Notes: a model not told the origin generated them from the letters alone. A stretch of 64,000 nt of DNA from Candidatus Woesearchaeota archaeon (GCA_018303205.1 JAGVYP010000066.1:4706-68705); one strand, 5' to 3'. Shown: positions 3,800 through 60,481, counted from the first letter of the stretch. Program-made: numbers and translations.

Positions 3800-4974
3800 C
3801 TCAAAGCATCAACAGGATGCAACTTTGCAGCTTGCCGTGAAGGAAGTGCACCTGAAATCATTCCTATAAAAAAAGCAAAAGCTAATGCTCCTCCCACAAG
3901 ATACCAATCCCATTGTATCTTTAAGAGACCAAAACCAGCTTGTTTTGCCATTTCACCAATTGCAAAGCTTACTGTCATGCCCAAGATAACCCCAAGAATA
4001 CCACCCACGATTCCAATCATTCCCGCTTCTATAAGAAACAAAAGCATAATATCCCTATTTCTCGCACCCAAACTTTTCATAACCCCAATATCCTTTGTTC
4101 TTTCCAAAACAGAAGTGTACATAGCATTCATAATTCCAATACAACCCACAACAAGAGAAACACCTGCAATACTGACCAGAATCCCCTGCACGATAAAAAG
4201 CGCTGTTTGTAAAAAATTAAGAATCTGAGTAGGTGTCAAAACATCAAAACTTTCATCATCACGCTCTCTTTCTAATCTCTTCTTTGTTTTTTCCACAACT
4301 TGATCAATGTTCTTTCCTTGTTTTAACGTTGCTTCAATAAAACTTACCTCTTTTTCTTTCCCAAAAATTTCTCGTGCTGTTTCCAAAGGAATTAGGATTA
4401 TCCTGTCATCTTGTTCATTGCCAATCTCATCAAAGATTCCCACAACCTCAAATTTCACTTCGTTGATCAACACGTTATTATTGACACCGATATCTTTCTT
4501 GAAAAAATCCTTTGCAGTGAGATACCCTACAATCACTTCATATCTTGCTCCATTCCTAAAATGTCTTCCTTCAAGAAAATCAAAATCATAATCTACAAAC
4601 CTTTTATCAGCATCATCTGCAGGCCATGCGGTTATCGAAGCATACAAGTCTTCTTTTCCATACGTTATTTTTACACTGGATTCCACAAGATAAGGAGTAA
4701 TATAAACAAATTCTCCCATATTCTCAAGCGTTTCCACATCTTTTGTAGTTAATCCCGTAGTGGTTCCCGGAGCACCTCCTTTCATCATCACATAAATCCT
4801 ATTTGCGCCTATCTTTTCAAATTGTTCTTCAATCGCATTTTCTAATCCATTGCTCACTGAAATAAGAGCCACAATACTCATCACAGAAATGACAATACCT
4901 AAAATGGTAAGCCAGCTTCTCAATCTTCTCTGATGAAGATTCTTTAATGATACACTGCAATAATCTCTGATCAT
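3787..4974 (-). CDS. ABC transporter permease, MacB/FtsX family (tandem paralog)
   Basis: 395 aa, same architecture as the adjacent permease (…MNAMYTSVLERTKDIGVMKSLGA…). Overlaps its neighbour by 13 nt (operon). Confidence 0.85.
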   Translation of the reverse strand: MIRDYCSVSLKNLHQRRLRSWLTILGIVISVMSIVALISVSNGLENAIEEQFEKIGANRIYVMMKGGAPGTTTGLTTKDVETLENMGEFVYITPYLVESSVKITYGKEDLYASITAWPADDADKRFVDYDFDFLEGRHFRNGARYEVIVGYLTAKDFFKKDIGVNNNVLINEVKFEVVGIFDEIGNEQDDRIILIPLETAREIFGKEKEVSFIEATLKQGKNIDQVVEKTKKRLERERDDESFDVLTPTQILNFLQTALFIVQGILVSIAGVSLVVGCIGIMNAMYTSVLERTKDIGVMKSLGARNRDIMLLFLIEAGMIGIVGGILGVILGMTVSFAIGEMAKQAGFGLLKIQWDWYLVGGALAFAFFIGMISGALPSRQAAKLHPVDALRWES

Positions 4975-6323
4975 GCATGCTGTCCCATGGCTTTAGCATG
5001 TTTCTTTTTTCTTCTGCGATGGAGAATGTACCATAGTAAAAGTGCAAAAACAAGAATTCCTATTCCCATACTCATATAAGGAGGTTGGGGCAGCAAACCA
5101 AATTTTCTTGCTTCTTCCTTGCTAAAAATACGCAATTCCATTTGTTCTTCTTTTATGAAATCCTGATTAAAGCTGTCCTTATATTTCATCGTTACTTTTA
5201 GAGGTATTATTCCTGGTTTGAGCTTATGCGTGTAAATTTCAAACTCTGCTGTTTCATAATCATCACTTTCTATGTTGCCTAAATAGCTCTTTGAACTTGA
5301 AAGAATCTCATAGTTTTCTGTGGGAATCAGTTCAAGAACAACAAAATTAATATCGCTTGTTCCCGTATTAGAAACAGAAAGTACAACCGTTCCTTGCTGT
5401 TCTGACAAGAACACATTACTCTCATCTTTGACCAGCTCGTATTCAGGAGGACTATAGACTGTAAGTCCAAACTTTGCTTCTACCACATGTTCCTGATTAA
5501 ATTTGTCCATATACTCAATCTGTAAAGGAATCAGATTTACTTTCGATTCAGCATCAGGAGGAACAATCAAATCAAAAAGAACAGACTCTGTTTTTCCCGG
5601 AAGAATCTCTCGTATAACTTTTTCGCTTGCTGAAGTAAGAGGAGCAACTGAAGTTTCATCCAAGACAAGCTTTACCTTTACTTCATCAATACTTGATTCT
5701 GCCAAATTTTTGAGTGTTACTCTTACCTGTACTTGGTCTCCTGGTTTTGGTTGTGGAGGAATGGTTTCTATAGATTCTACTCCTAAAATCGATTCTCTTC
5801 CTCGTACTCGTATCTTAAATGTGGGTTCATCATCAAGAATAACTCCATACTTTTCCGTGTTGTAAATCAGTGTAAATTCTTCTTCGCCTTCTGCAGCATT
5901 GTCATCCACTTTTAATCTCCAAAAGAGTATTGCGCTGTCTTCTTCTGTTTGTCTTGCTCCCAGAGTACCTATGTCGACATATTTTTTTTCAGGATCTGCA
6001 AATGAGAATGGATACTGAAGCTCTAAATTGAATACAACCGTATTGACAGGCTTTATTCCAAAATTCTCTACTCGAAAACGGAGTTCTACAAATTCTCCTG
6101 GCTCAACAGGATCAGGATCTTGACTCAAAAAGGTTACTTTGACATTAGAATGGGGAACTTCAGCTTTTGTGCTCTGCGGATCTGTAACTGTTGTAGTATC
6201 TTCTTCTCCAAAAAGGTCAGTGATTTGTGCGAACACACTGCTCATCAGCATTATGAACATAGTTATTATCATTATGTATCGTCTTGTTTTCATAGGCTCA
6301 CCTTTTCTTATCCATTTTTCCAT
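4971..6323 (-). CDS. large secreted, C-terminally membrane-anchored beta-rich protein (CARDB/S-layer-domain-like) associated with the ABC exporter
   Basis: Signal peptide (MKTRRYIMIITMFIMLMSSVFAQ), about 400 aa extracellular, a C-terminal TM helix and a basic tail (HRRRKKKHAKA). Sits between the ATPase and permeases as in archaeal MacB-type operons. Confidence 0.55.
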   Translation of the reverse strand: MEKWIRKGEPMKTRRYIMIITMFIMLMSSVFAQITDLFGEEDTTTVTDPQSTKAEVPHSNVKVTFLSQDPDPVEPGEFVELRFRVENFGIKPVNTVVFNLELQYPFSFADPEKKYVDIGTLGARQTEEDSAILFWRLKVDDNAAEGEEEFTLIYNTEKYGVILDDEPTFKIRVRGRESILGVESIETIPPQPKPGDQVQVRVTLKNLAESSIDEVKVKLVLDETSVAPLTSASEKVIREILPGKTESVLFDLIVPPDAESKVNLIPLQIEYMDKFNQEHVVEAKFGLTVYSPPEYELVKDESNVFLSEQQGTVVLSVSNTGTSDINFVVLELIPTENYEILSSSKSYLGNIESDDYETAEFEIYTHKLKPGIIPLKVTMKYKDSFNQDFIKEEQMELRIFSKEEARKFGLLPQPPYMSMGIGILVFALLLWYILHRRRKKKHAKAMGQHA

Positions 6324-27603: not shown

Positions 27604-29121
27604 TTACTTTATTGAAAAAAGTGGAGTTTCAAGTGGTTTGTCTTGCTGATAAGGTATGTGCATATTCAACGCAATCTCTGCTTTCATAAGTTCGATAGTG
27701 ATATCGCAATAATGATCAGCTCTTGACAAAAGATGCAGCTTAGCAAATTTCATGATTAATTCCCGACATGTTTTTCCTACAAAAGTGAAAAGTTCTTCTC
27801 CTTCGTAAGAAAGAAGCGTTGCTTGGATAGCATTGTTCAGAACCTGTATTTTTACTATCCCACGGGGATCCAAATCCCTGTGCTCCTTAAATCGCGTTGA
27901 TATTCTTTCTCGCAATTGACACATGACCAGATCTTTTGCATCTTTCCATTCCTCTTCATAAATATGAGCGGAATGCGAAGTAATACTTAAAACACCTTTT
28001 TCTAAAGATAATGCTTTTGCAATGTAATCTTGCAGAGCAAGTAAACCAAAAGTATTAGAAATTCCTGCCTTGAAAATATCATGCGAGCGAAAAGTTGCAA
28101 AGAGATTTACTTTTGTGTCAACCATGACTTGTACATGATTCAAACAAGGAGGTGAACTGCTTTCATAATCTTTTTCAGGGTCAAAGGTTATTGCTATAGC
28201 TCTTCGTGTAGTTGCATTCTTTTTTAATTTCTCTATCATCTTTGCAATCTGATCTATGTTATGATAATCTCTTAATCGTTCACCATAGGTGTATGCCACA
28301 CCTTCTTTTTTTTCAGGTGAAAGAAAACAAGCACTGTAATTTTCTAGAGCTTTTGCATCTAAACCAATTATCTCTTCTATATTTCTCGGAAGCTTTGGAA
28401 AGAAAGGTTGTTCATGCTCTTCAATGACCCAGGTAATATGCTGCAATTCTTTTTGTCGTGATCCATATTCTGTTTTTTTTATTTTTCCATAACTCAAAAT
28501 AAAATCCACTACCCTTAACCATGTTAAAAAAAGGGAATTTTCTCTTGCAAGAAAGCCTACTTCTTCTGAAGGTAGCTCTTTAGAGGTGTCTCTTATCGGT
28601 TCTGGAAAGGAATATTTTTTTCGTTCATTTTCTTCCTGAAAAGAGAATTGGTGTTGCTTGATTGCACTTATCAGTTCTGAAATATCCTGTTTATCAATAT
28701 CAATCAGCTTTACTTTTTCTATAAGCTCTCTTATACAAGTAAGATCAATTTCTTTATGTATAGAAATCGTGGTTCCTGTAACAATATGTTCCTCTGTGAT
28801 ACCCTCTTTCCATAACTGAAAGAGTGCTTGCCATGCTTTTCTCCCCATTTCTGTATTAGAAAGAGGGCTTTTTCTCCATACGAACACATATTGAATACTC
28901 GGGTTCAGCAATAGATTACGCAACAAAATAGAAATGCCTTCCTGACTATACAAGGTACCTGTTATGGAGATATGCATTTTAATCTCAGGATGCATCTTTA
29001 TGAGCGTTTCGGTATCACTCCAACACGTGCAAAGAGCGAGAGGACTCTGTTCCCCCTCTATAATAGGATACTTCTCCGGTTGATAGAAGGTTCCTTGTTC
29101 TTTTGAGATACTCAGAGTCAT
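27604..29121 (-). CDS. thymidylate synthase (ThyA)-like C-terminal domain fused to an N-terminal domain of about 240 aa of unknown function
   Basis: ThyA hallmarks in the C-terminal half: YTYGERLRDY (YGxxWR), TRRAIAITFDP, SPPCLNH (catalytic Cys), DIFKAGISNTFGL, AHIY. Confidence 0.65.
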   Translation of the reverse strand: MTLSISKEQGTFYQPEKYPIIEGEQSPLALCTCWSDTETLIKMHPEIKMHISITGTLYSQEGISILLRNLLLNPSIQYVFVWRKSPLSNTEMGRKAWQALFQLWKEGITEEHIVTGTTISIHKEIDLTCIRELIEKVKLIDIDKQDISELISAIKQHQFSFQEENERKKYSFPEPIRDTSKELPSEEVGFLARENSLFLTWLRVVDFILSYGKIKKTEYGSRQKELQHITWVIEEHEQPFFPKLPRNIEEIIGLDAKALENYSACFLSPEKKEGVAYTYGERLRDYHNIDQIAKMIEKLKKNATTRRAIAITFDPEKDYESSSPPCLNHVQVMVDTKVNLFATFRSHDIFKAGISNTFGLLALQDYIAKALSLEKGVLSITSHSAHIYEEEWKDAKDLVMCQLRERISTRFKEHRDLDPRGIVKIQVLNNAIQATLLSYEGEELFTFVGKTCRELIMKFAKLHLLSRADHYCDITIELMKAEIALNMHIPYQQDKPLETPLFSIK

Positions 29122-39143: not shown

Positions 39144-39620
39144 TTAGGAAAGAAGTTGATCTTTTTTTCTGATGATAACTTTATCTTTTTCTTCAATCAT
39201 ACTCATAATCTTACTTAATTCTTGTTTGCTGAGTATTTCTTTGAGATAGAACAGTATAGTCTCAAGATCAATAACGGTAATTCCCAATTGCTCAGCTATG
39301 GAAATTGCTTTTTTATCATTAGAGACTAGCACTATCATTCTTTTGTGAGCAAGAGCGATGCATTCAAGTTCTCCTTTTCCTAAAAGTTTTTTCTTTTGCA
39401 GTCGTTGTACAAGATCTTGTTCTTCTTGGGTAAGAAATATATGTTTGAACGATGATGAATTCTTTATATTTTTCAGACTTTGTAATTTTGATCGTTCTAG
39501 GTCATCAATAACAGCTGGAGGGATAAGGAGTTCATCACGAAAAACTTTTTTCAAGAGCACTATGTTCTCTATTTTTGCAAAAGTGCTGAGAATATCAGCA
39601 TCAAAAATAAAAGATTTCAT
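39144..39620 (-). CDS. PIN-domain nuclease (VapC-like toxin)
   Basis: Starts IFDADIL (first conserved PIN Asp). 158 aa. Confidence 0.6.
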   Translation of the reverse strand: MKSFIFDADILSTFAKIENIVLLKKVFRDELLIPPAVIDDLERSKLQSLKNIKNSSSFKHIFLTQEEQDLVQRLQKKKLLGKGELECIALAHKRMIVLVSNDKKAISIAEQLGITVIDLETILFYLKEILSKQELSKIMSMIEEKDKVIIRKKDQLLS

Positions 39621-39955
39621 CTTTTCTTGAGTAGGGCAAGTCCTTTTTTTCTTCTCTCAGCAGAAGAAGGCGATATTCTTCTTATTCCACGTGCTGCGAG
39701 TTCTTCTTTAAAATCAGGTGTGCTCATTTCTGAAATTTCAGCAGCTCTGCCAATGCTTACACTTCCATCTTTGTATAATTGTATTGCTGCAGTGGTTTTC
39801 AGACTTGGTTTCGAGTGTAAAAGGTAGCGTATTGCATCTTTTGCCATGTCTGACCTGCTTGAATACATACCTGCTTTGACAAGAGCAGTAATCTCTTCGC
39901 TCATCGTCTCAGGTAAACTAAACGTTTCTGCGTGTGCCATGTTCTCACCCTTCAT
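39617..39955 (-). CDS. UPF0175/RHH-type antitoxin-like protein
   Basis: C-terminal …IQLYKDGSVSIGRAAEISEMSTPDFKEELAARGI matches the UPF0175 antitoxin signature. 4-nt overlap with the downstream PIN gene. Confidence 0.6.
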   Translation of the reverse strand: MKGENMAHAETFSLPETMSEEITALVKAGMYSSRSDMAKDAIRYLLHSKPSLKTTAAIQLYKDGSVSIGRAAEISEMSTPDFKEELAARGIRRISPSSAERRKKGLALLKKR

Positions 39956-55294: not shown

Positions 55295-56398
55295 ATGAAG
55301 CTATTCATGGTAGGTTATGTAGTCATACTCTTACTCTCAAATATCATTCTAGCTCAGGAGGAAAACGAGACTCTTGATTTTACTAAAGATAGAAACATTC
55401 TCCCACCCTCCCCTCCTGATGAGAATACGATCAATATCATTTTTGAAATTCGTGATGAAGCGGAAAATTTGCTTTCAAATACACACCTTATTTTTATCTT
55501 GACGAATACCCAAACTGATGAAACACTCAACCTTCTTCAATATACCGATACAGGAACAACTTTTCTGAACATAAAAAAAGGTATTTGGAAGGGTAAATTA
55601 GGAGTTGATGAAGCAATACATTTAGGAAGTGATTATTTTGCAAATATTTATCTGGATACAAATGAAAAAAGAGAGTATACTCCTCATCTTATTCATGTTG
55701 GAAATATTCTTGGAGAAGTTTATGATGAAAATAACCGGCTTGTCAAAGGAGCAAAAGTGAGTTCGCAATGTACTCAGTATTTAGTAGAAGATAGTGAAAC
55801 TGATGAGTTTGGAACATTTCTTCTTGAGTATCTTGCTCCAGGAGAATGTCGTATTGCTGCTTTGTATGATGATCGTATCGGGTTTAGTACCGTTATGATA
55901 ACGCCAAGTACTTTGACGTATGCAAAAATTATTCTTGATCAAAGAACCGTTCAAAATAATACAAACCTTTGGTTTATAGGGGCAGTAGTTATCATTTTCG
56001 TATTCTTTCTTTTTTACCAGTTCAATAAAAATAAAACAAAAAAAGATGATGTTGGGCAACAAAAAAATAAAAAAAGTATACAACTACAAAAAAAAGAAAA
56101 AGTTCAATTACCAAAAAAAGAAGAAAAAAATATTCAACAAGAAAAGAACGACATTGATCAAAAGCGTGTCAATGATATCCTTAACTCATTAAAAGCAAGA
56201 GAAAAGCAAATCGTCACGTTTCTTTTAGAAAATAACTACCAAGCTACTCAAGCAAAAATTATTTCCGGTACAGGAATTCCCAAAACTTCATTGATGAGAA
56301 CCTTAGATTCCCTTGTTATGAGAAATATTATTCAAGTTCAGAAGATACAAAAAGCAAAGAAAATAAGCCTTACTAATTGGTTTTTAGGGATGGAATAA
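55295..56398 (+). CDS. membrane-tethered winged-helix (MarR/TrmB-like) regulator with extracellular CarboxypepD_reg-like domain
   Basis: Signal peptide, extracellular domain of about 220 aa (…GEVYDENNRLVKGAKVS…ETDEFGTFLLEYLAPGECRIAAL…), one TM (LWFIGAVVIIFVFFLFYQF), K/Q-rich linker, then a C-terminal HTH (…KQIVTFLLENNYQATQAKIISGTGIPKTSLMRTLDSLVMRNIIQ…). Confidence 0.55.
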   Translation: MKLFMVGYVVILLLSNIILAQEENETLDFTKDRNILPPSPPDENTINIIFEIRDEAENLLSNTHLIFILTNTQTDETLNLLQYTDTGTTFLNIKKGIWKGKLGVDEAIHLGSDYFANIYLDTNEKREYTPHLIHVGNILGEVYDENNRLVKGAKVSSQCTQYLVEDSETDEFGTFLLEYLAPGECRIAALYDDRIGFSTVMITPSTLTYAKIILDQRTVQNNTNLWFIGAVVIIFVFFLFYQFNKNKTKKDDVGQQKNKKSIQLQKKEKVQLPKKEEKNIQQEKNDIDQKRVNDILNSLKAREKQIVTFLLENNYQATQAKIISGTGIPKTSLMRTLDSLVMRNIIQVQKIQKAKKISLTNWFLGME

Positions 56399-56419
56399 GT
56401 TAGTCAAATCATAATACCA

Positions 56420-57250
56420 TCATTTTTTCTTTTCAGACAGAAGTCTTACACCCAGAATATACGCATAAGCAATAAGCAAATAAATATACGTAACAACTAT
56501 ATTTATACCGCCAAATATTTTTAACATATTCTCAGATGGAGGATAAAAGGGAGGACTGTTCATGGTTTCAGTGCTCATTAAAAACATAAGGATCGTGTTC
56601 ATACCGATTATAATATACGAAATAATCAATAAAGTTCCCATAGTTTTCGCATGCTTAAGCTTATCCATCTTGCGTAAACCCATTCCAAAAATGATCATGG
56701 CTATAGCAAAAAGTAAATTTAACGTCATGCTAAATATCACGAAAGTATGGAGAGTTCCAAGAGGGATGCCTAAAATGTGAATAATTTCTGTTTCGCTTAC
56801 CTGTTGCAAAATGGTAAATTGAATTAAAGTATAGCACAATTGAAGTAAAAACAAAATTATCACTATCATAGGTATTTTCGAAAATATTTTATCTTTTAGT
56901 TTTACAAATATTTCTTTAAAACCAAGAATAAACAAAGGAAAAGCTATTAAGAAAATAGGGTATGAGAAAAAAGCTACACTGCCATAAATAACCATTTCAA
57001 ATTCTCCATATAACCCTGGAATAGGAAACCATTGAGATCCGTCAAGAAGAGGTTGAAGCAACCACAAGATTGTTGACAGAACAGGACTAAGTAAAGTACA
57101 GATAACTGCTAAAATTCCTGCAATTTTTGAATATTTAACGGGAAGATTCATATATTTTGTTCTGTTAGGAAGAGACTTATATACTTTACTATACAATAAT
57201 AAAATTAAGTCAAGTGGGAATAGAATTTGAGCAATAACTTCGGTTTTCAC
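56420..57250 (-). CDS. polytopic membrane protein, hypothetical
   Basis: 276 aa with about 7 TM helices. Confidence 0.45.
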   Translation of the reverse strand: MKTEVIAQILFPLDLILLLYSKVYKSLPNRTKYMNLPVKYSKIAGILAVICTLLSPVLSTILWLLQPLLDGSQWFPIPGLYGEFEMVIYGSVAFFSYPIFLIAFPLFILGFKEIFVKLKDKIFSKIPMIVIILFLLQLCYTLIQFTILQQVSETEIIHILGIPLGTLHTFVIFSMTLNLLFAIAMIIFGMGLRKMDKLKHAKTMGTLLIISYIIIGMNTILMFLMSTETMNSPPFYPPSENMLKIFGGINIVVTYIYLLIAYAYILGVRLLSEKKK

Positions 57251-57289
57251 ATCCCTATAAACCTTGATTTAACCAAGAAATAAGCTTAT

Positions 57290-57316
57290 GGACCTATCTG
57301 GACCTTCAAGGTCCGC
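57290..57316. promoter_or_regulatory. GGACC-N5-GGACC-N5-GGTCC repeat/hairpin in a divergent promoter region, followed by a TATA-like CCTATATATAAA (57321-57332)
   Basis: GGACCTATCTGGACCTTCAAGGTCCGC, two direct GGACC copies plus one inverted copy, can form a 5-bp hairpin (GGACC TTCAA GGTCC). Confidence 0.35.
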
Positions 57317-57364
57317 TTAACCTATATATAAACGTCCACATTAACAGTTGTAGCATCAGCAAAG

Positions 57365-58969
57365 ATGCAAAGAAGATGCGAAGAAATTTGGAGGAAAAAT
57401 AACATGAAAAATACAAAAAATGCAGCAAATTCAACATATATTTTTATGTTCAATATACTTATGATAACTCTGATTAGCATATTTACACTATCTACAGTGT
57501 CTATAGTTTATGCTCAAGAGACAGGTGATTCTCTTTTTTATAATGGTGAAGTTCTTTTGAAGTTTCACAGCCTTTCAGATGATGAATATGCAATGACATT
57601 TACAAATATTGAAGGTGCAAATTTTAGACCTATTCTTGTAAACAATGAGAATGTTGATGGTCCATTCAAGTTTGATATTATATTCAAAGAAGCAGCAAAT
57701 CAATGTGATTTCACAAATGGAATTAAGAGGGGAGAAGAATTTCTTTTAAGCTCTGCTGCTGATGGTGCAGGAACAACACATGTGCTTAAGTATCAAAGTG
57801 CAGATTTAACTAACAGAGAACTCACTTTTTTAGAAAGAAGCAACATAGAAATAACGTATGAAATTTCTACAGAAAATTGTAGCGGGCAGCAAATAGGCAG
57901 ATTTAATCTTATCATCGCCGGCATACAGTATAAAGGGTATATTAACACGGCAACAAGCGTAATTACTTTGAGTCTCAACACAGATCAAGCTATTGACGGC
58001 GACAAAATAAAATTAGTAACCAAAGAAGGTTTTGTGATTACTATGCCTGACAGTCTATCAAATGGCGAAGCAAGAGTATCAATCGCATTTCCAAGTGCAT
58101 ACGCTCATAATGATATAATTGTAAGCTTGCTTGCTGCTCCAGCTAATGAAGTTGATGCAAGAGTGAATGGAGTAACTCTTACTGAAAAACAGCAAGGAGA
58201 TATGCTTTACAAGTACGCACTTCTTTCAAATAATCTTTATGTATTATGGGAGCAAGAAACAGATACGAGAGACCCACCAACGATCTATCTTAAAACATAT
58301 GTTAAACAAAATGATGAAATTTTAGAAGAAATAGAAGAACTAGAACAAAGAGAAGAACAACTAGAAAGAGAAGAACGAAGAGAGAAAGAAGAACAAATAG
58401 AACAAAGAGAGAGAGAAGAACAAAGAGAATTACTTGAAAACAATAAACAAGACAGAACCATAACTCCTCCAACTTTTCCTGGAGAAATTGTAACAAGTGT
58501 ATCTTTGAACAAAGGCTGGAACTTGGTAAGTTTAGGTGCAGAAGTGCAAAATTTCTTGCCTTCTGATTGTTCTGCTGACAAAAAACTGGTTGCTTTTGTG
58601 TATATTTCAGATCTTAAAAAATATGTGAGTATCAAAGAAGCAAGGGAAATCTTAGGCAAAGATTTTGGAAAATATTTTGAAGAACATAGTTTTTGGGTAT
58701 ATTCTTACAGTGATTGTGTGCTCAAAACAACGGTAAAGAAAGTGAGTGTTGAGAAATTCCTTTTAGATGAAGGTTGGAATCTTTTGACGGTTCCAAGTTT
58801 TTTTGCAGGTAAATCTTTTGTTGATATACAAAACAGTTGCGATGTCCTTAGTGCTTATACGTGGAAAGCAGACAAGCAGCAATGGGTAACACTTGAAGAT
58901 CAGCAAAAAATGGAAGATAATGGGCAGGGAATTATTGTCAAAGTAGATAAAAGCTGTATCATGCAGTGA
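57365..58969 (+). CDS. secreted protein with central acidic coiled-coil linker (E/R/Q-rich)
   Basis: Signal-peptide-like hydrophobic segment after Met-14 (alternative start 57404 preceded by GGAGG). Beta-rich N-domain, EELEQREEQLEREERREKEEQIEQREREEQRELLE linker, C-terminal domain. Confidence 0.55.
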   Translation: MQRRCEEIWRKNNMKNTKNAANSTYIFMFNILMITLISIFTLSTVSIVYAQETGDSLFYNGEVLLKFHSLSDDEYAMTFTNIEGANFRPILVNNENVDGPFKFDIIFKEAANQCDFTNGIKRGEEFLLSSAADGAGTTHVLKYQSADLTNRELTFLERSNIEITYEISTENCSGQQIGRFNLIIAGIQYKGYINTATSVITLSLNTDQAIDGDKIKLVTKEGFVITMPDSLSNGEARVSIAFPSAYAHNDIIVSLLAAPANEVDARVNGVTLTEKQQGDMLYKYALLSNNLYVLWEQETDTRDPPTIYLKTYVKQNDEILEEIEELEQREEQLEREERREKEEQIEQREREEQRELLENNKQDRTITPPTFPGEIVTSVSLNKGWNLVSLGAEVQNFLPSDCSADKKLVAFVYISDLKKYVSIKEAREILGKDFGKYFEEHSFWVYSYSDCVLKTTVKKVSVEKFLLDEGWNLLTVPSFFAGKSFVDIQNSCDVLSAYTWKADKQQWVTLEDQQKMEDNGQGIIVKVDKSCIMQ

Positions 58970-59178
58970 AGAGGTTCAAAATGAAACTCATCATAACACT
59001 CTTCATACTAATGCTTTTGATAACTGCTTGTGCTAAACAAGATGCGCAACAAGAAGCAAAGAAAGATGCCGCAATAGACACTTCGTCTAATATACCAAAG
59101 ATTTCCATTTCAAATTTTGGCATAGATGATGTTTTTGCAGATGAGGGTGAATTAACACCGCCTTCTTTTGGAGAATAA
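58966..59178 (+). CDS. small lipoprotein (70 aa)
   Basis: Lipobox LITAC. 4-nt overlap with the upstream gene. Confidence 0.4.
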   Translation: MKRFKMKLIITLFILMLLITACAKQDAQQEAKKDAAIDTSSNIPKISISNFGIDDVFADEGELTPPSFGE

Positions 59179-59264
59179 GTTTAACTAAAAATTAAATTGA
59201 TGCTTTCTAGCGAAAGCTCTGCTTAAGAAATAAAAAAATAAGAAAACAACGTGAGGTAAAAACA

Positions 59265-59789
59265 ATGAAAACAAAAAATGTAGCGTTAGCTCTCTGCTTT
59301 GCTTTTTTGATTGCGAGCATGAGCGCACAAGCTGTTTTGCAGCCAAATAGTAAAGAGAATGGTAAAGAGTTATGCGGAGATGTCAATGACGATGGAAGAA
59401 CAAGTATTCTTGATGCTTTGATGATTGATCAAGCAATCAGAAGCATTTCTGTATCCACTACTTATCTTCGCAGAGGAGATGTGAATAATGACGGTCTCTT
59501 AACAGAAAAAGACGCATATCTTGTTGCGAGCTATGCTGCAGGAGTTTCTGCATTGCAATGCGGACTTTGCGGTGATGGAAATAAAGATGGTAAAATCAAT
59601 AAAGTAGATGCAAAACTTGCTTCAATGATATCTGTTTCTTTGTCAGTGCCAAAAGGAACTGCAGTGCATGCACTTGATGTCAATGCAGATGGTCGCATCA
59701 ATAGTGTTGATGTTCTTTTTATTAGGCAATATGAATCAGGAAAGAGAACCTCTTTGCAATGTCGAGAGCCAGTGATTGTTGCTCCATAA
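59265..59789 (+). CDS. secreted tandem (double) dockerin protein
   Basis: Signal peptide plus four Ca-binding dockerin-type repeats: GDVNDDGRTSILDAL, GDVNNDGLLTEKDAYL, GDGNKDGKINKVDAKL, LDVNADGRINSVDVLF. This is two complete dockerin modules. Confidence 0.7.
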   Translation: MKTKNVALALCFAFLIASMSAQAVLQPNSKENGKELCGDVNDDGRTSILDALMIDQAIRSISVSTTYLRRGDVNNDGLLTEKDAYLVASYAAGVSALQCGLCGDGNKDGKINKVDAKLASMISVSLSVPKGTAVHALDVNADGRINSVDVLFIRQYESGKRTSLQCREPVIVAP

Positions 59790-59890
59790 TTTTTTTTATT
59801 TTTGTTTTTTTATTCATAAATCAATAGAACCAAAAAATATATAACTATGATACAATTAAAATAAATTAAAATGCATTAGAGGTACTCAAA

Positions 59891-60481
59891 ATGGAAAAAA
59901 GAATTATATGTTGTGCAATTGCTTTAATTATCTTGATAATAATCTTGACAATAGTTAGTGGGTGCTCAAAAGAAGTATCTTCTGATCAAACAAGTAATCA
60001 AACTCATGTGCAATATGATGAATCAAAACCTTTAGCAAATTCCTTAAATGATCCAAGGGTAATAAAGAACACTTTAAATGATGTGAGGTGTGATGGAAAA
60101 GAGTATGCCGTAGATATTGAATCGGAAGATGCAGTGGTACTTCTTACATTACCGATAGGTCAGCAGAATCAAATCAATGATTTAAAGTCAAGTGTTGTAA
60201 TTCAGGAATTTTTTGAAATAGGACAAAATGAAAAAAATTTAAATATGCCTATGGAAATAAAATACTCTTTTGGAGGTATGGTCGGAAGTGAATCTGGAAA
60301 TTTAGAAAATGGTATGGTTATGTCTTTAGTAATCATAAAAGCGGATAAATTATTGCAAGATGGTGTAAACCCTCTTTTGAAATTACAAGCTTCTATGGGT
60401 TACTCTCTTCTTGCTATGAATCAAGGAGAAGAGAAAGGTGAACTTTCATTTTTATGCAAATTAGCACAAGATATCCAATGA
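59891..60481 (+). CDS. secreted lipoprotein, hypothetical
   Basis: Signal/lipobox (…IVSGCSKE), 196 aa. Confidence 0.45.
   Translation: MEKRIICCAIALIILIIILTIVSGCSKEVSSDQTSNQTHVQYDESKPLANSLNDPRVIKNTLNDVRCDGKEYAVDIESEDAVVLLTLPIGQQNQINDLKSSVVIQEFFEIGQNEKNLNMPMEIKYSFGGMVGSESGNLENGMVMSLVIIKADKLLQDGVNPLLKLQASMGYSLLAMNQGEEKGELSFLCKLAQDIQ

What the first reader, a model, noticed from the sequence alone, without database searches (positions are those of the whole stretch)
57365..60481. Secreted-protein cluster containing a tandem double-dockerin protein
The 59265..59789 product carries four dockerin-type Ca-binding repeats (two full dockerin modules) behind a signal peptide. It is flanked by a large secreted coiled-coil protein, a 70-aa lipoprotein and another lipoprotein. 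Dockerins imply cohesin partners and a surface assembly or adhesion complex. In a small-genome archaeon this could relate to cell-cell or host attachment. No cohesin is obvious in the window.
Basis: partly seen in the sequence, partly recalled or inferred. Interest (0 to 1): 0.55.

Follow-up and report, generated by a model that had tools for sequence, protein, structure and literature searches.

The report
Secreted double-dockerin protein in DPANN archaeon
A small-genome (Woesearchaeota) archaeon encodes a small exported protein made of two calcium-binding 'dockerin' plugs next to a widely conserved surface-protein gene cassette. The dockerin call is solid and already in NCBI's annotation, but no matching 'cohesin' socket was found, so what it plugs into is unknown.

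Summary
The ORF at 59265-59789 encodes a 174-aa protein with an N-terminal signal peptide and two tandem type I dockerin modules. Pfam Dockerin_1 scores 73.6 bits against a cutoff of 22.9. There are four canonical Ca loops, and a conserved cysteine pair brackets each module. NCBI already names it 'dockerin type I repeat-containing protein' (Candidatus Woesearchaeota).

The 'cohesin partner / adhesion complex' reading is only partly supported. No cohesin was detectable anywhere in the window, in 60 related surface proteins, or in about 790 kb of related DPANN loci. The neighbour's confidently modelled C-terminal domain is not cohesin-like. Its N-domain could not be modelled.

The neighbours turned out to be more informative than expected. 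The upstream membrane-tethered winged-helix protein, the large coiled-coil protein and the 65-aa lipoprotein form a three-gene cassette conserved across DPANN archaea. The cassette is defined by an undescribed C-terminal 'GWNL' module and a lipoprotein tail motif. In some relatives, dockerins sit inside the heads of cassette proteins. Here the double dockerin is a separate gene that travels with the cassette in two lineages (dN/dS 0.26). The second lipoprotein (59891-60481) is not conserved.

Most likely role: a Ca-dependent bivalent surface adaptor. It is a new member of a known kind, of moderate interest.

The parts
59265..59789 (+). Stand-alone double-dockerin protein, 174 aa (NCBI MBS3128927.1). 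Layout: signal peptide, 13-aa linker, dockerin 1, 2-aa linker, dockerin 2, 8-aa tail.
   Evidence: Pfam Dockerin_1 73.6 bits against GA 22.9, two stretches. PDB dockerin hits. NCBI name. dN/dS 0.26 against the L056 orthologue. GAGGT 8 nt upstream of the ATG.
59265..59333 (+). Predicted Sec signal peptide (MKTKNVALALCFAFLIASMSAQA, with AQA-V as the likely cleavage site).
   Evidence: Hydropathy scan and sequence inspection. Identical in the orthologue apart from one V/I change. This is an inference, since no signal-peptide predictor was available.
59373..59561 (+). Dockerin module 1 (aa 37-99), bracketed by Cys37 and Cys99. Ca loops at 59379-59414 (DVNDDGRTSILD) and 59478-59513 (DVNNDGLLTEKD).
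   Evidence: Both cysteines are conserved in L056/L057.
59568..59762 (+). Dockerin module 2 (aa 102-166), bracketed by Cys102 and Cys166. Ca loops at 59574-59609 (DGNKDGKINKVD) and 59676-59711 (DVNADGRINSVD).
   Evidence: The best PDB alignments (4fl4, CelD) cover aa 98-156.
59790..59814 (+). T-rich tract directly after the dockerin stop codon. It resembles an archaeal oligo-T terminator and probably ends the transcription unit.
   Evidence: Sequence. Inference from the known use of oligo-T terminators in archaea.
59179..59264 (+). Conserved intergenic region between the lipoprotein and dockerin genes. It contains the hairpin GCTTTC-TAGC-GAAAGC (59202-59217) and an A/T-rich stretch.
   Evidence: The first 43 nt are identical between the window and L056, although flanking genes have dS 0.2-0.5. 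Its function (promoter or processing site) is an inference.
58981..59178 (+). 65-aa lipoprotein-like protein (MBS3128926.1). It has a lipobox LITAC and a conserved C-terminal tail, GIDDVFADEGELTPPSFGE. It is a member of a DPANN-wide small-ORF family that follows genes carrying the GWNL module.
   Evidence: 36 of 51 testable module genes in other DPANN loci are followed by such an ORF, against 3 of 2365 background small ORFs. The orthologue is 74% identical.
57404..58969 (+). Large secreted protein, 521 aa (MBS3128925.1). Regions: signal/anchor (57404-57517), lineage-private N-domain (57518-58303), long helix or coiled coil (58310-58447), and the conserved C-terminal double 'GWNL' module (58454-58966).
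   Evidence: The N-domain is found only in the near-identical P0003 and P0004. The C-module is found in 460 representative proteins. The module and helix have pLDDT above 90, while the N-domain is about 35.
57290..57333 (+). Conserved upstream region of the large gene: GGACCT repeats and the palindrome GGACCTTCAAGGTCC (57290-57314), followed by a TATA-like box CCTATATATAAAC (57321-57333).
   Evidence: The roughly 115 nt upstream of the ATG are about 95% identical between the window and L057. The perfect palindrome is unique in the window. A role as operator or promoter is an inference.
55295..56398 (+). Membrane-tethered winged-helix protein, 367 aa (MBS3128923.1). Layout: signal peptide, CarboxypepD_reg-like ectodomain (55706-55903), TM helix (55955-56029), cytoplasmic wHTH (56189-56368). 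It is the first gene of the conserved cassette.
   Evidence: A homologue lies directly upstream of the module gene, on the same strand, in 22 of 39 testable DPANN loci. Among 25 family members, CarboxypepD_reg hits 18 and wHTH DUF7343 hits 14.
56420..57250 (-). Multi-pass membrane protein of 276 aa, with no family hit. It is inserted on the opposite strand between cassette genes 1 and 2. It is absent from the sister lineage and is not part of the conserved unit.
59891..60481 (+). 196-aa lipoprotein-like protein (lipobox VSGC). It is private to the window lineage and not part of the conserved block.
   Evidence: No Pfam, NCBIfam or PDB hits. No homologue in any fetched locus or representative protein. 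In L056/L057 an agmatinase-like gene occupies this position.

Best explanation
Gene 59265-59789 encodes an exported, non-catalytic protein that consists only of two tandem type I dockerin modules. Each module has two intact Ca-binding loops and is probably clasped by a disulfide between its flanking cysteines.

The gene is a lineage-specific add-on to a DPANN-wide three-gene cell-surface cassette. That cassette comprises a membrane-tethered wHTH regulator, a large secreted protein (variable head, coiled-coil stalk, conserved C-terminal 'GWNL' module), and a small lipoprotein with a conserved acidic-F-PPxxP tail.

The most likely function is a Ca-dependent bivalent adaptor or cross-linker at the cell surface. 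Each dockerin would bind a protein receptor, cohesin-like or functionally equivalent. This would tether or bridge surface proteins of the archaeon itself, or of a partner cell.

Shown: the dockerin identity, the tandem architecture, purifying selection, the conserved linkage to the cassette, and the existence of dockerin-headed cassette proteins in relatives.

Inferred: export, the disulfide clasps, Ca dependence, bivalent bridging, and the nature of the partner.
For: - Dockerin identity. Pfam 73.6 bits against 22.9, with two domains. Both halves align to solved dockerins, including the C. thermocellum double dockerin. There are four canonical loops, unique to this ORF in the window.
- Real, constrained gene. 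It has its own Shine-Dalgarno-like site and signal peptide. It is 84% identical to the orthologue in a diverged lineage, with dN/dS 0.26 and all Ca ligands and all four bracketing cysteines retained.
- Linkage to the cassette. The order wHTH protein, large protein, 65-aa lipoprotein, dockerin is kept in L056/L057, although the genes on both sides differ from those in the window.
- Fusion evidence. In other DPANN, Dockerin_1 domains above threshold sit in the same polypeptides as the GWNL module (P0037, P0043, P0122, P0134; L012, L013 and L046, the last with three tandem dockerins). These genes lie in canonical cassettes.
- Extracellular context. Module-bearing relatives carry adhesin, inhibitor and S-layer-type heads: CARDB, Laminin_G_3, S_layer_C, MG2, chagasin and Kazal.
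- Different specificities are plausible. The four repeats differ at the positions that contact cohesin in characterised type I dockerins (10/11 and 17/18: IL/DQ, EK/AS, KV/SM, SV/RQ). This is read from the sequence and fits two different, single-mode specificities. It is an inference.
- Precedents. Stand-alone and protease-linked double dockerins exist in C. thermocellum (PMC12484212). Non-cellulosomal archaeal dockerin-cohesin pairs bind specifically and have been proposed for cell-cell interaction in ANME archaea (PMC9012536).
Against: - No cohesin was detected in the window.
- No cohesin was detected in 60 module-bearing relatives.
- A verified CipA cohesin seed found nothing in 2,343 ORFs and proteins from about 790 kb of DPANN loci (best E 0.03).
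- The neighbour's well-modelled C-module has no cohesin or other PDB match (best E 0.9).
- According to the non-cellulosomal dockerin literature cited (Peer et al. 2009, which I could not read), many genomes carry dockerin-like modules without cohesins. Binding to a cohesin is therefore not guaranteed.
- Gene-order conservation rests on only two lineages at about 80% identity.
- In the sister lineage, loop 3 has Ser instead of the usual Gly at position 6.
- The AlphaFold single-sequence model failed (pLDDT 33), so there is no fold-level confirmation and no check of disulfide geometry.
Confidence: 0.5

Rival explanations
1. Orphan dockerin-like module with a non-cohesin ligand. The two modules are Ca-stabilised helical domains that bind something other than a cohesin, such as S-layer glycans, pseudomurein-like or host envelope carbohydrate, or the GWNL module or lipoprotein tail of the cassette. 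Alternatively they serve as a Ca-dependent structural unit.
For: No cohesin was found by any test available here. Dockerins in the related DPANN proteins occur in about 5 of 60 sampled proteins, against 0 of 60 with cohesins. Dockerin-only genomes are reported in the literature cited.
Against: All characterised dockerins bind cohesins. Sensitivity for divergent archaeal cohesins was limited here: I had the Pfam model, one clostridial seed, and no genome-wide search. Conservation of the helix surfaces between the two lineages is equally compatible with a protein partner.
Confidence: 0.3
2. Cis-partner model. The lineage-private N-terminal domain of the adjacent large protein (57518-58303) is a divergent cohesin, and the double dockerin docks onto it.
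For: Adjacency and conserved co-linearity in two lineages. The N-domain is predicted to be beta-rich. Both the N-domain and the stand-alone dockerin gene are private to the same lineage.
Against: No Pfam Cohesin hit even at E<=1. No similarity to any solved cohesin. The domain is about 260 aa, whereas cohesins are about 140-150 aa. The AlphaFold model has pLDDT of about 35, so Foldseek could not test it.
Confidence: 0.1
3. Degenerating split-off. The gene is a remnant of the head of a former dockerin-headed cassette protein and no longer has a function.
For: Relatives carry dockerins fused to the GWNL module. The stand-alone form was seen only in this lineage.
Against: It has its own signal peptide and ribosome-binding site. 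The ORF is intact and the same length in two lineages, with dN/dS 0.26 and all Ca ligands kept. The upstream intergenic region is conserved.
Confidence: 0.05
4. Component of a cellulosome-like polysaccharide-degrading complex, or merely generic EF-hand calcium loops mislabelled as dockerins.
For: Dockerins are best known from cellulosomes. Weak EF-hand hits exist.
Against: No glycoside hydrolase, CBM, scaffoldin or cohesin is present anywhere in the window, and the protein has no catalytic domain. The EF-hand families score 15-18 bits, below their cutoffs of 25-30, whereas Dockerin_1 scores 73.6 against 22.9. Alignments to solved dockerins span both loops and helices.
Confidence: 0.03

Closest known systems
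Double-dockerin proteins of Clostridium (Acetivibrio) thermocellum: dDoc_0689 of an S8 protease (PDB 8X39/8X3A) and a stand-alone double dockerin (Chen et al. 2019, 2024, as summarised in PMC12484212)
   Same: Both have two type I dockerin modules in direct tandem behind a signal peptide, and one C. thermocellum example likewise has no catalytic partner domain. The window protein aligns to 8x39/8x3a (E 5e-4). In dDoc_0689 the first module has an intramolecular clasp. Here each module is bracketed by a cysteine pair that could form a covalent clasp, which is an inference.
   Different: The window protein is archaeal (DPANN) rather than clostridial and has no cellulosome context. No cohesins, scaffoldins or CAZymes were detected. 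It has cysteine brackets instead of the described hydrophobic/H-bond clasp. It is linked to a DPANN surface cassette. Sequence identity is only at the family level.
Non-cellulosomal archaeal dockerin/cohesin proteins (Archaeoglobus fulgidus; ANME-1/-2 archaea)
   Same: Both are dockerin modules in archaea that do not degrade cellulose. These archaeal pairs have been shown to bind specifically, and they have been proposed to organise surface proteins or cell-cell contacts (PMC9012536).
   Different: In A. fulgidus and ANME, cohesins are found in the same genomes and often in the same proteins. There the dockerins tag substrate-binding proteins or scaffoldin-like proteins. Here there is a dockerin-only protein and no detectable cohesin in the available sequence.
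Canonical type I dockerins of cellulosomal enzymes (Cel48S, CelD, Xyn10B; Pfam PF00404)
   Same: Both have a duplicated 22-residue segment with a 12-residue Ca loop (D1, N/D3, D5, D12) followed by a helix, and a module length of about 63-65 aa.
   Different: The cohesin-contact positions differ (no Ser-Thr pair at positions 10/11). The two repeats of each module are not symmetrical. The modules are not appended to an enzyme.
Multi-dockerin putative adhesins of ultrasmall symbiotic bacteria (Omnitrophota giant ORF with nine non-cellulosomal dockerins, PMC10066038)
   Same: Both have tandem non-cellulosomal dockerins in a reduced-genome, probably host-dependent microbe, interpreted as adhesion modules.
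   Different: Those dockerins are embedded in giant multidomain ORFs in bacteria. Here there is a 17-kDa dockerin-only protein in an archaeon.

Membership tests
Type I dockerin (Pfam PF00404 Dockerin_1) | Score above the curated Pfam gathering threshold | tested here: met
   73.6 bits against 22.9, E 1.5e-20, two matched stretches. The precomputed annotation agrees.
Type I dockerin (Pfam PF00404 Dockerin_1) | Each module is a duplicated segment with a 12-residue EF-hand-like Ca loop (Asp/Asn at positions 1, 3 and 5; Asp/Glu at 12) followed by a helix | tested here: met
   Four loops at aa 39, 72, 104 and 138 all fit. Alignments to solved dockerins cover loops and helices.
Type I dockerin (Pfam PF00404 Dockerin_1) | Three-helix dockerin fold | tested here: inconclusive
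   The single-sequence AlphaFold2 model failed (mean pLDDT 33), and no deeper alignment was permitted. Only sequence-level matches to solved structures support the fold.
Type I dockerin (Pfam PF00404 Dockerin_1) | Ca-dependent, high-affinity binding to a cohesin module | not testable with these tools
   This needs biochemistry or multimer modelling.
Cohesin-dockerin system | A cohesin-bearing partner encoded by the same organism | tested here: not met
   For the 64-kb window plus about 6 kb beyond it, no Pfam Cohesin hit was found in any gene and no phmmer hit with a verified cohesin seed. The rest of the genome could not be searched, because the MAG is not in genome contigs, so the genome-wide status is unknown.
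Cohesin (candidates: neighbouring large protein) | Nine-stranded beta jelly-roll of about 140-150 aa, matching Pfam Cohesin or solved cohesins | tested here: not met
   C-terminal module: the model is confident (pLDDT above 90), has a mixed alpha/beta structure, and Foldseek finds no PDB match better than E 0.9. N-domain: there is no sequence match, but the model is unusable, so its fold is inconclusive.
Cellulosome | Multi-cohesin scaffoldin plus dockerin-tagged carbohydrate-active enzymes | tested here: not met
   No GH, CBM or scaffoldin is present in the window. The dockerin protein has no catalytic domain.
Double-dockerin proteins (C. thermocellum type) | Two complete dockerin modules in immediate tandem on one polypeptide | tested here: met
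   Modules span aa 37-99 and 102-166, separated by 2 residues. The protein aligns to 8x39/8x3a.
DPANN 'GWNL-module' surface cassette (defined here, not a published family) | TM-wHTH gene, then a gene ending in the double GWNL module, then a small signal-bearing ORF ending in ..F..PP..P | tested here: met
   The window carries all three (55295-56398, 57404-58969, 58981-59178). In other DPANN loci the small ORF follows in 36 of 51 cases (background 3 of 2365), and the wHTH gene precedes in 22 of 39.

The most novel reading that the evidence does not exclude
The double dockerin may be a soluble, heterobifunctional bridge used in symbiont-host attachment. One module would plug into the Woesearchaeote's own surface apparatus, the conserved cassette protein anchored through its GWNL module to the small lipoprotein. 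The other module would plug into cohesin-bearing surface proteins of a host archaeon. Methanogen and ANME relatives are known to carry many cohesin/dockerin proteins. The cassette itself (sensor-regulator, variable-headed stalked surface protein, lipoprotein anchor) would then be a previously undescribed, DPANN-wide surface-display system with swappable heads. Nothing in the evidence excludes this, and nothing tests it directly.
Probability: 0.12. Interest if true: 0.75.

Novelty: new member of a known kind. Interest (0 to 1): 0.4.

Why it matters
How DPANN archaea attach to and recognise host cells is largely unknown at the molecular level. A dockerin-only, potentially bivalent adaptor is a concrete, easily expressed candidate for Ca-dependent surface docking. 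It can be screened against cohesin libraries or host surface proteins.

The by-product may matter more. The neighbouring genes define a three-gene cassette conserved across DPANN phyla, in which an undescribed C-terminal module is paired with a small lipoprotein. That module sits at the end of hundreds of different adhesin-, inhibitor- and S-layer-like proteins. This gives a handle for cataloguing DPANN surface proteomes and suggests a testable anchoring mechanism.

The dockerin itself is not a surprise. Non-cellulosomal dockerins in archaea have been known since 1999, double dockerins are known in clostridia, and NCBI's pipeline already labels this protein correctly.

Tried and rejected
- AlphaFold2 of the dockerin protein from a single sequence gave pLDDT 33. 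It is unusable and was not fold-searched.
- AlphaFold2 of the 521-aa neighbour gave a confident helix and C-module, but the N-domain had pLDDT of about 35.
- Foldseek of that model against PDB and BFVD found nothing significant. Weak beta-propeller-blade hits (BamB, PQQ dehydrogenases, Ph1500; E 1-3) are only a lead.
- Word-indexed homologue searches returned only self or near-self for the dockerin protein and the large protein. A profile search with the C-module returned mostly short unnamed proteins.
- The genome-contig scan did not contain the source MAG, so a genome-wide cohesin search was impossible.
- The metagenome scan for dockerin orthologues found only one further contig, from the already known sister lineage.
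- The sigma-70 promoter and intrinsic terminator scan was uninformative in an archaeon, with counts equal to the shuffles.
- PADLOC found no defence-system hits apart from weak wHTH noise, so a defence-island reading was rejected.
- NCBIfam gave only generic lipoprotein-signal noise for the small ORF.
- Literature searches for dockerin with DPANN, Woesearchaeota or Nanoarchaeota found nothing specific. Peer et al. 2009 and Chen et al. 2024 are not held, so they are cited only through papers that summarise them.
- The cellulosome and generic EF-hand readings were rejected on the Pfam evidence.


Full report
**1. The observation**

The 174-aa product of 59265-59789 scores 73.6 bits on Pfam Dockerin_1 (E 1.5e-20, curated cutoff 22.9) with two matched stretches. 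EF-hand families reach only 15-18 bits, below their cutoffs.

A sequence search of PDB matches solved type I dockerins with both halves of the protein. The hits include 4fl4, CelD 1clc/4cj0, Cel48S 2mte/1daq, Xyn10B 1ohz/2ccl, and the C. thermocellum double dockerin 8x39/8x3a.

Four 12-residue loops fit the dockerin Ca-loop pattern, at aa 39, 72, 104 and 138. That pattern occurs four times in 45,019 residues of six-frame ORFs in the window, all within this ORF.

The two modules (aa 37-99 and 102-166) are 36% identical to each other. Each is bracketed by cysteines: LCGD...LQC.

Signal peptides and lipoboxes are visible in the sequence. The helix at aa 303-348 of the large protein is modelled with pLDDT above 90.

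Two coordinates need correcting. The large gene probably starts at 57404 (521 aa), because a GGAGG lies upstream and the NCBI and ENA calls use that start. The small lipoprotein probably starts at 58981 (65 aa).

**2. Organism and prior annotation**

The window carries archaeal information-processing genes: Nop56/58, fibrillarin, RFC and a TFIIS-type zinc ribbon. It has about 35% G+C.

The proteins are in NCBI from a 69-kb contig of a 'Candidatus Woesearchaeota archaeon' MAG, in kingdom Nanobdellati, that is DPANN. The dockerin protein is MBS3128927.1, already named 'dockerin type I repeat-containing protein'. The large protein and the 65-aa protein are annotated 'hypothetical'.

**3. Is there a cohesin?**

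No test available here found one.

- Precomputed Pfam hits for all called genes across the window and about 6 kb beyond it list no Cohesin.
- Direct scans of the neighbours at E<=1, and of the ORFs not covered by the precomputed tables, also found none.
- The large protein and the 196-aa lipoprotein have no similarity to any solved structure.
- I verified a CipA cohesin sequence against PDB (1AOH, 296 bits). I then searched it with filters off against 2,343 ORFs and proteins from the window, 51 loci and 150 representative proteins. The best E-value was 0.03, and that hit was not in the window.
- AlphaFold2 of the large protein gave a confident C-terminal module and helix but an unusable N-domain (pLDDT about 35). 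Foldseek against PDB found nothing better than E 0.9.

The source MAG is not in the searchable genome collection, so the genome-wide test could not be run.

**4. What the neighbours are**

An exhaustive HMMER search with the 521-aa protein found 460 representative proteins at E<=1e-3. Almost all match only its last 170 or so residues.

That stretch is a double repeat with invariant G-W-N-L, Trp and Cys positions (alignment A1). It lies within 25 residues of the C-terminus in 119 of 158 domain hits.

The N-domain is private to this lineage. No Pfam or NCBIfam model covers the module.

Sixty module-bearing representatives carry extracellular-type heads. These include CARDB, Laminin_G_3, S_layer_C, MG2, chagasin-type and Kazal inhibitors, beta-helix and thioredoxin/DsbA. 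Five or six of them carry genuine Dockerin_1 domains, and none carries a cohesin.

A genome scan with the module profile returned 49 loci, almost all from DPANN MAGs. The labels include Woesearchaeota/Nanoarchaeota, Nanohalarchaeota-labelled, Micrarchaeota, Aenigmatarchaeota, Iainarchaeum, Altiarchaeales and Naiadarchaeum.

In those loci:

- The module gene is followed immediately by a small signal-bearing ORF ending in a conserved ...(I/L)DD(I/V)F...PP..P tail in 36 of 51 testable cases. The background is 3 of 2365 small ORFs. Of the 36, 24 have a lipobox-like motif. The window's 65-aa protein (...GIDDVFADEGELTPPSFGE) is a member.
- The module gene is preceded on the same strand by a homologue of the window's 367-aa protein in 22 of 39 testable cases.

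The 367-aa family has a signal peptide, a CarboxypepD_reg-like ectodomain (18 of 25 members), one TM helix and a C-terminal winged helix (DUF7343 in 14 of 25; MarR/TrmB-like).

In the window, an unrelated membrane-protein gene on the opposite strand (56420-57250) is inserted between cassette genes 1 and 2.

**5. How the dockerin gene relates to the cassette**

A diverged sister lineage (L056 and L057) keeps the order wHTH protein, large protein, 65-aa lipoprotein, dockerin protein. There the large protein is about 78% identical and has an extra domain of about 100 aa. The lipoprotein is 74% identical and the dockerin 84% identical. The genes on both sides differ from those in the window: an agmatinase/decarboxylase/deoxyhypusine-synthase cluster downstream, and a different gene upstream.

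Between the two lineages, dN/dS values are:

| Gene or region | dN/dS |
|---|---|
| Dockerin gene | 0.26 |
| Large-protein N-domain | 0.17 |
| Large-protein C-module | 0.13 |
| wHTH gene | 0.20 |
| Short lipoprotein | 0.69 |

All Ca ligands and all four bracketing cysteines are conserved. One loop glycine is replaced by Ser in the sister lineage.

The intergenic region upstream of the dockerin gene, and the region upstream of the large gene, are much more conserved than synonymous sites. The latter contains GGACCT repeats, a palindrome and a TATA-like box. An oligo-T tract follows the dockerin stop codon.

The 196-aa lipoprotein has no homologue anywhere, and another gene occupies its place in the sister lineage.

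No stand-alone dockerin protein was found next to cassettes in the other 49 loci. However, dockerins occur inside the heads of cassette proteins, for example three in tandem in L046. This is a fusion-type link between dockerins and this surface system.

**6. Mechanism**

*Shown.* This is a constrained, signal-bearing, dockerin-only protein with two complete modules, genetically linked to a surface-protein cassette. Its relatives sometimes carry dockerins in cis.

*Inferred.* The protein is exported and each module folds around two Ca ions. Flanking cysteines probably form a disulfide clasp, because the termini of a dockerin lie together and the C-module also has invariant cysteine pairs. The two modules differ at the positions that contact cohesins in characterised dockerins, so they may bind two different partners. 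That would make the protein a bivalent adaptor or cross-linker at the cell surface.

I put about 0.5 on this adaptor model. The main rival, at about 0.3, is that these are orphan dockerin-like modules with a non-cohesin ligand. The cis-partner idea (N-domain as cohesin) gets about 0.1. Remnant, cellulosome and EF-hand readings are unlikely.

For the cassette, my working hypothesis is as follows. The small lipoprotein anchors the large protein to the membrane through an interaction between the tail and the GWNL module. The TM-wHTH protein regulates the large gene through the conserved palindrome. This is inference only.

**7. Comparison with known systems**

- *Double dockerins.* The closest architecture is the rare double dockerin of C. 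thermocellum, which is either stand-alone or fused to an S8 protease. There the first module has an intramolecular clasp and binds a cell-surface scaffoldin, and the second module's role is unclear (PMC12484212; PDB 8x39/8x3a, hit).
- *Archaeal dockerins.* Non-cellulosomal dockerins and cohesins are established in archaea (A. fulgidus, ANME). In ANME they have been proposed to mediate cell-cell interactions (PMC9012536).
- *Ultrasmall bacteria.* Tandem non-cellulosomal dockerins have been read as adhesins in ultrasmall Omnitrophota (PMC10066038).

Membership in Pfam Dockerin_1 and in the 'double dockerin' architecture is met. Membership in a cohesin-dockerin system is not demonstrated. Membership in a cellulosome is not met.

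**8. Verdict**

The adhesion or assembly interpretation is plausible but lacks a partner.

The added value of this analysis is the context: a conserved DPANN surface cassette with an undescribed C-terminal module and a partner lipoprotein. The dockerin gene is attached to that cassette in this lineage.

Interest is 0.4. Novelty is 'new member of a known kind'. The cassette noted in passing may deserve separate follow-up.

Noticed in passing
window 55295-59178; loci L007-L049: A three-gene cassette is conserved across DPANN archaea. It runs: membrane-tethered wHTH protein (CarboxypepD_reg-like ectodomain), then a large secreted protein ending in a double 'GWNL' module, then a small lipoprotein-like ORF with a ..DD[IV]F..PP..P tail. 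The small ORF follows in 36 of 51 loci (background 3 of 2365), and the wHTH gene precedes in 22 of 39. I found no description of it in the searchable literature.
   Followed up: partly
window 58454-58966 (aa 351-521 of the 521-aa protein): The C-terminal double-repeat 'GWNL' module appears to be an undescribed domain family. It has 460 representatives at 50% identity and no Pfam or NCBIfam model. The AlphaFold model is confident (pLDDT above 90), yet there is no significant PDB or BFVD match. The only hits are weak beta-propeller-blade matches (BamB, PQQ dehydrogenases, Ph1500; E 1-3). These could hint at an oligomeric propeller built on the coiled-coil stalk.
   Followed up: partly
loci L008, L018, L021, L024, L026, L027, L028, L035, L036, L013 (small ORF after the module gene): Many of the small lipoproteins carry an extra Cys-rich insert (C..G.YT.DG.CC.YVC..C..GY.EG.C.CEC) between the lipobox and the conserved tail. 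The window's 65-aa version lacks it.
   Followed up: no
window 57290-57333: GGACCT repeats and a perfect palindrome, GGACCTTCAAGGTCC, lie just upstream of a TATA-like box in front of the large gene. The roughly 115 nt upstream of the ATG are about 95% identical to the sister lineage, although dS of the coding regions is about 0.5. This is a candidate operator for the adjacent wHTH protein.
   Followed up: partly
window 59179-59264 (hairpin 59202-59217): The intergenic region before the dockerin gene is almost identical in the sister lineage. It contains the hairpin GCTTTC-TAGC-GAAAGC. Its function is unknown.
   Followed up: no
window 56420-57250 (- strand): A 276-aa multi-pass membrane protein with no family hit and no homologue in any fetched locus is inserted between cassette genes 1 and 2. 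It is absent from the sister lineage.
   Followed up: partly
L046 5786-10516; L012 455-4195; L013 6437-10552: The dockerins inside DPANN cassette proteins are also decorated with cysteines. They have flanking Cys residues plus a 'CC' in the linker between the two Ca-binding repeats. L046 has three such dockerins in tandem. This suggests disulfide-stabilised dockerins are a DPANN habit.
   Followed up: partly
L012, L015, L027, L035, L046: Several contigs carrying the DPANN-type cassette are deposited as 'uncultured Methanosarcinales archaeon' MAGs. This may be mislabelling or mis-binning. It might also reflect DPANN contigs being co-binned with a host of similar abundance.
   Followed up: no
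L056 1793-3724 / L057 1625-3556: The sister-lineage orthologue of the large protein has an extra domain of about 100 aa (…TKTYTINGVNYRVELLVV…IVNRFATDEIEVGESD…) inserted before the coiled coil. This shows modular head evolution at about 78% overall identity.
   Followed up: no
window 39144-39955 (- strand): Adjacent DUF3368 and UPF0175 genes look like a toxin-antitoxin-type pair (precomputed Pfam).
   Followed up: no
window 27604-29121 (- strand): A 505-aa protein combines a thymidylate synthase domain with a weak pterin-binding DUF4346 hit. This may be an unusual fusion.
   Followed up: no
window 4971-6323 (- strand): A CARDB-domain secreted protein (34.8 bits) sits next to MacB/FtsX-type ABC transporter genes. 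It is another candidate surface protein, and it lacks the GWNL module.
   Followed up: no
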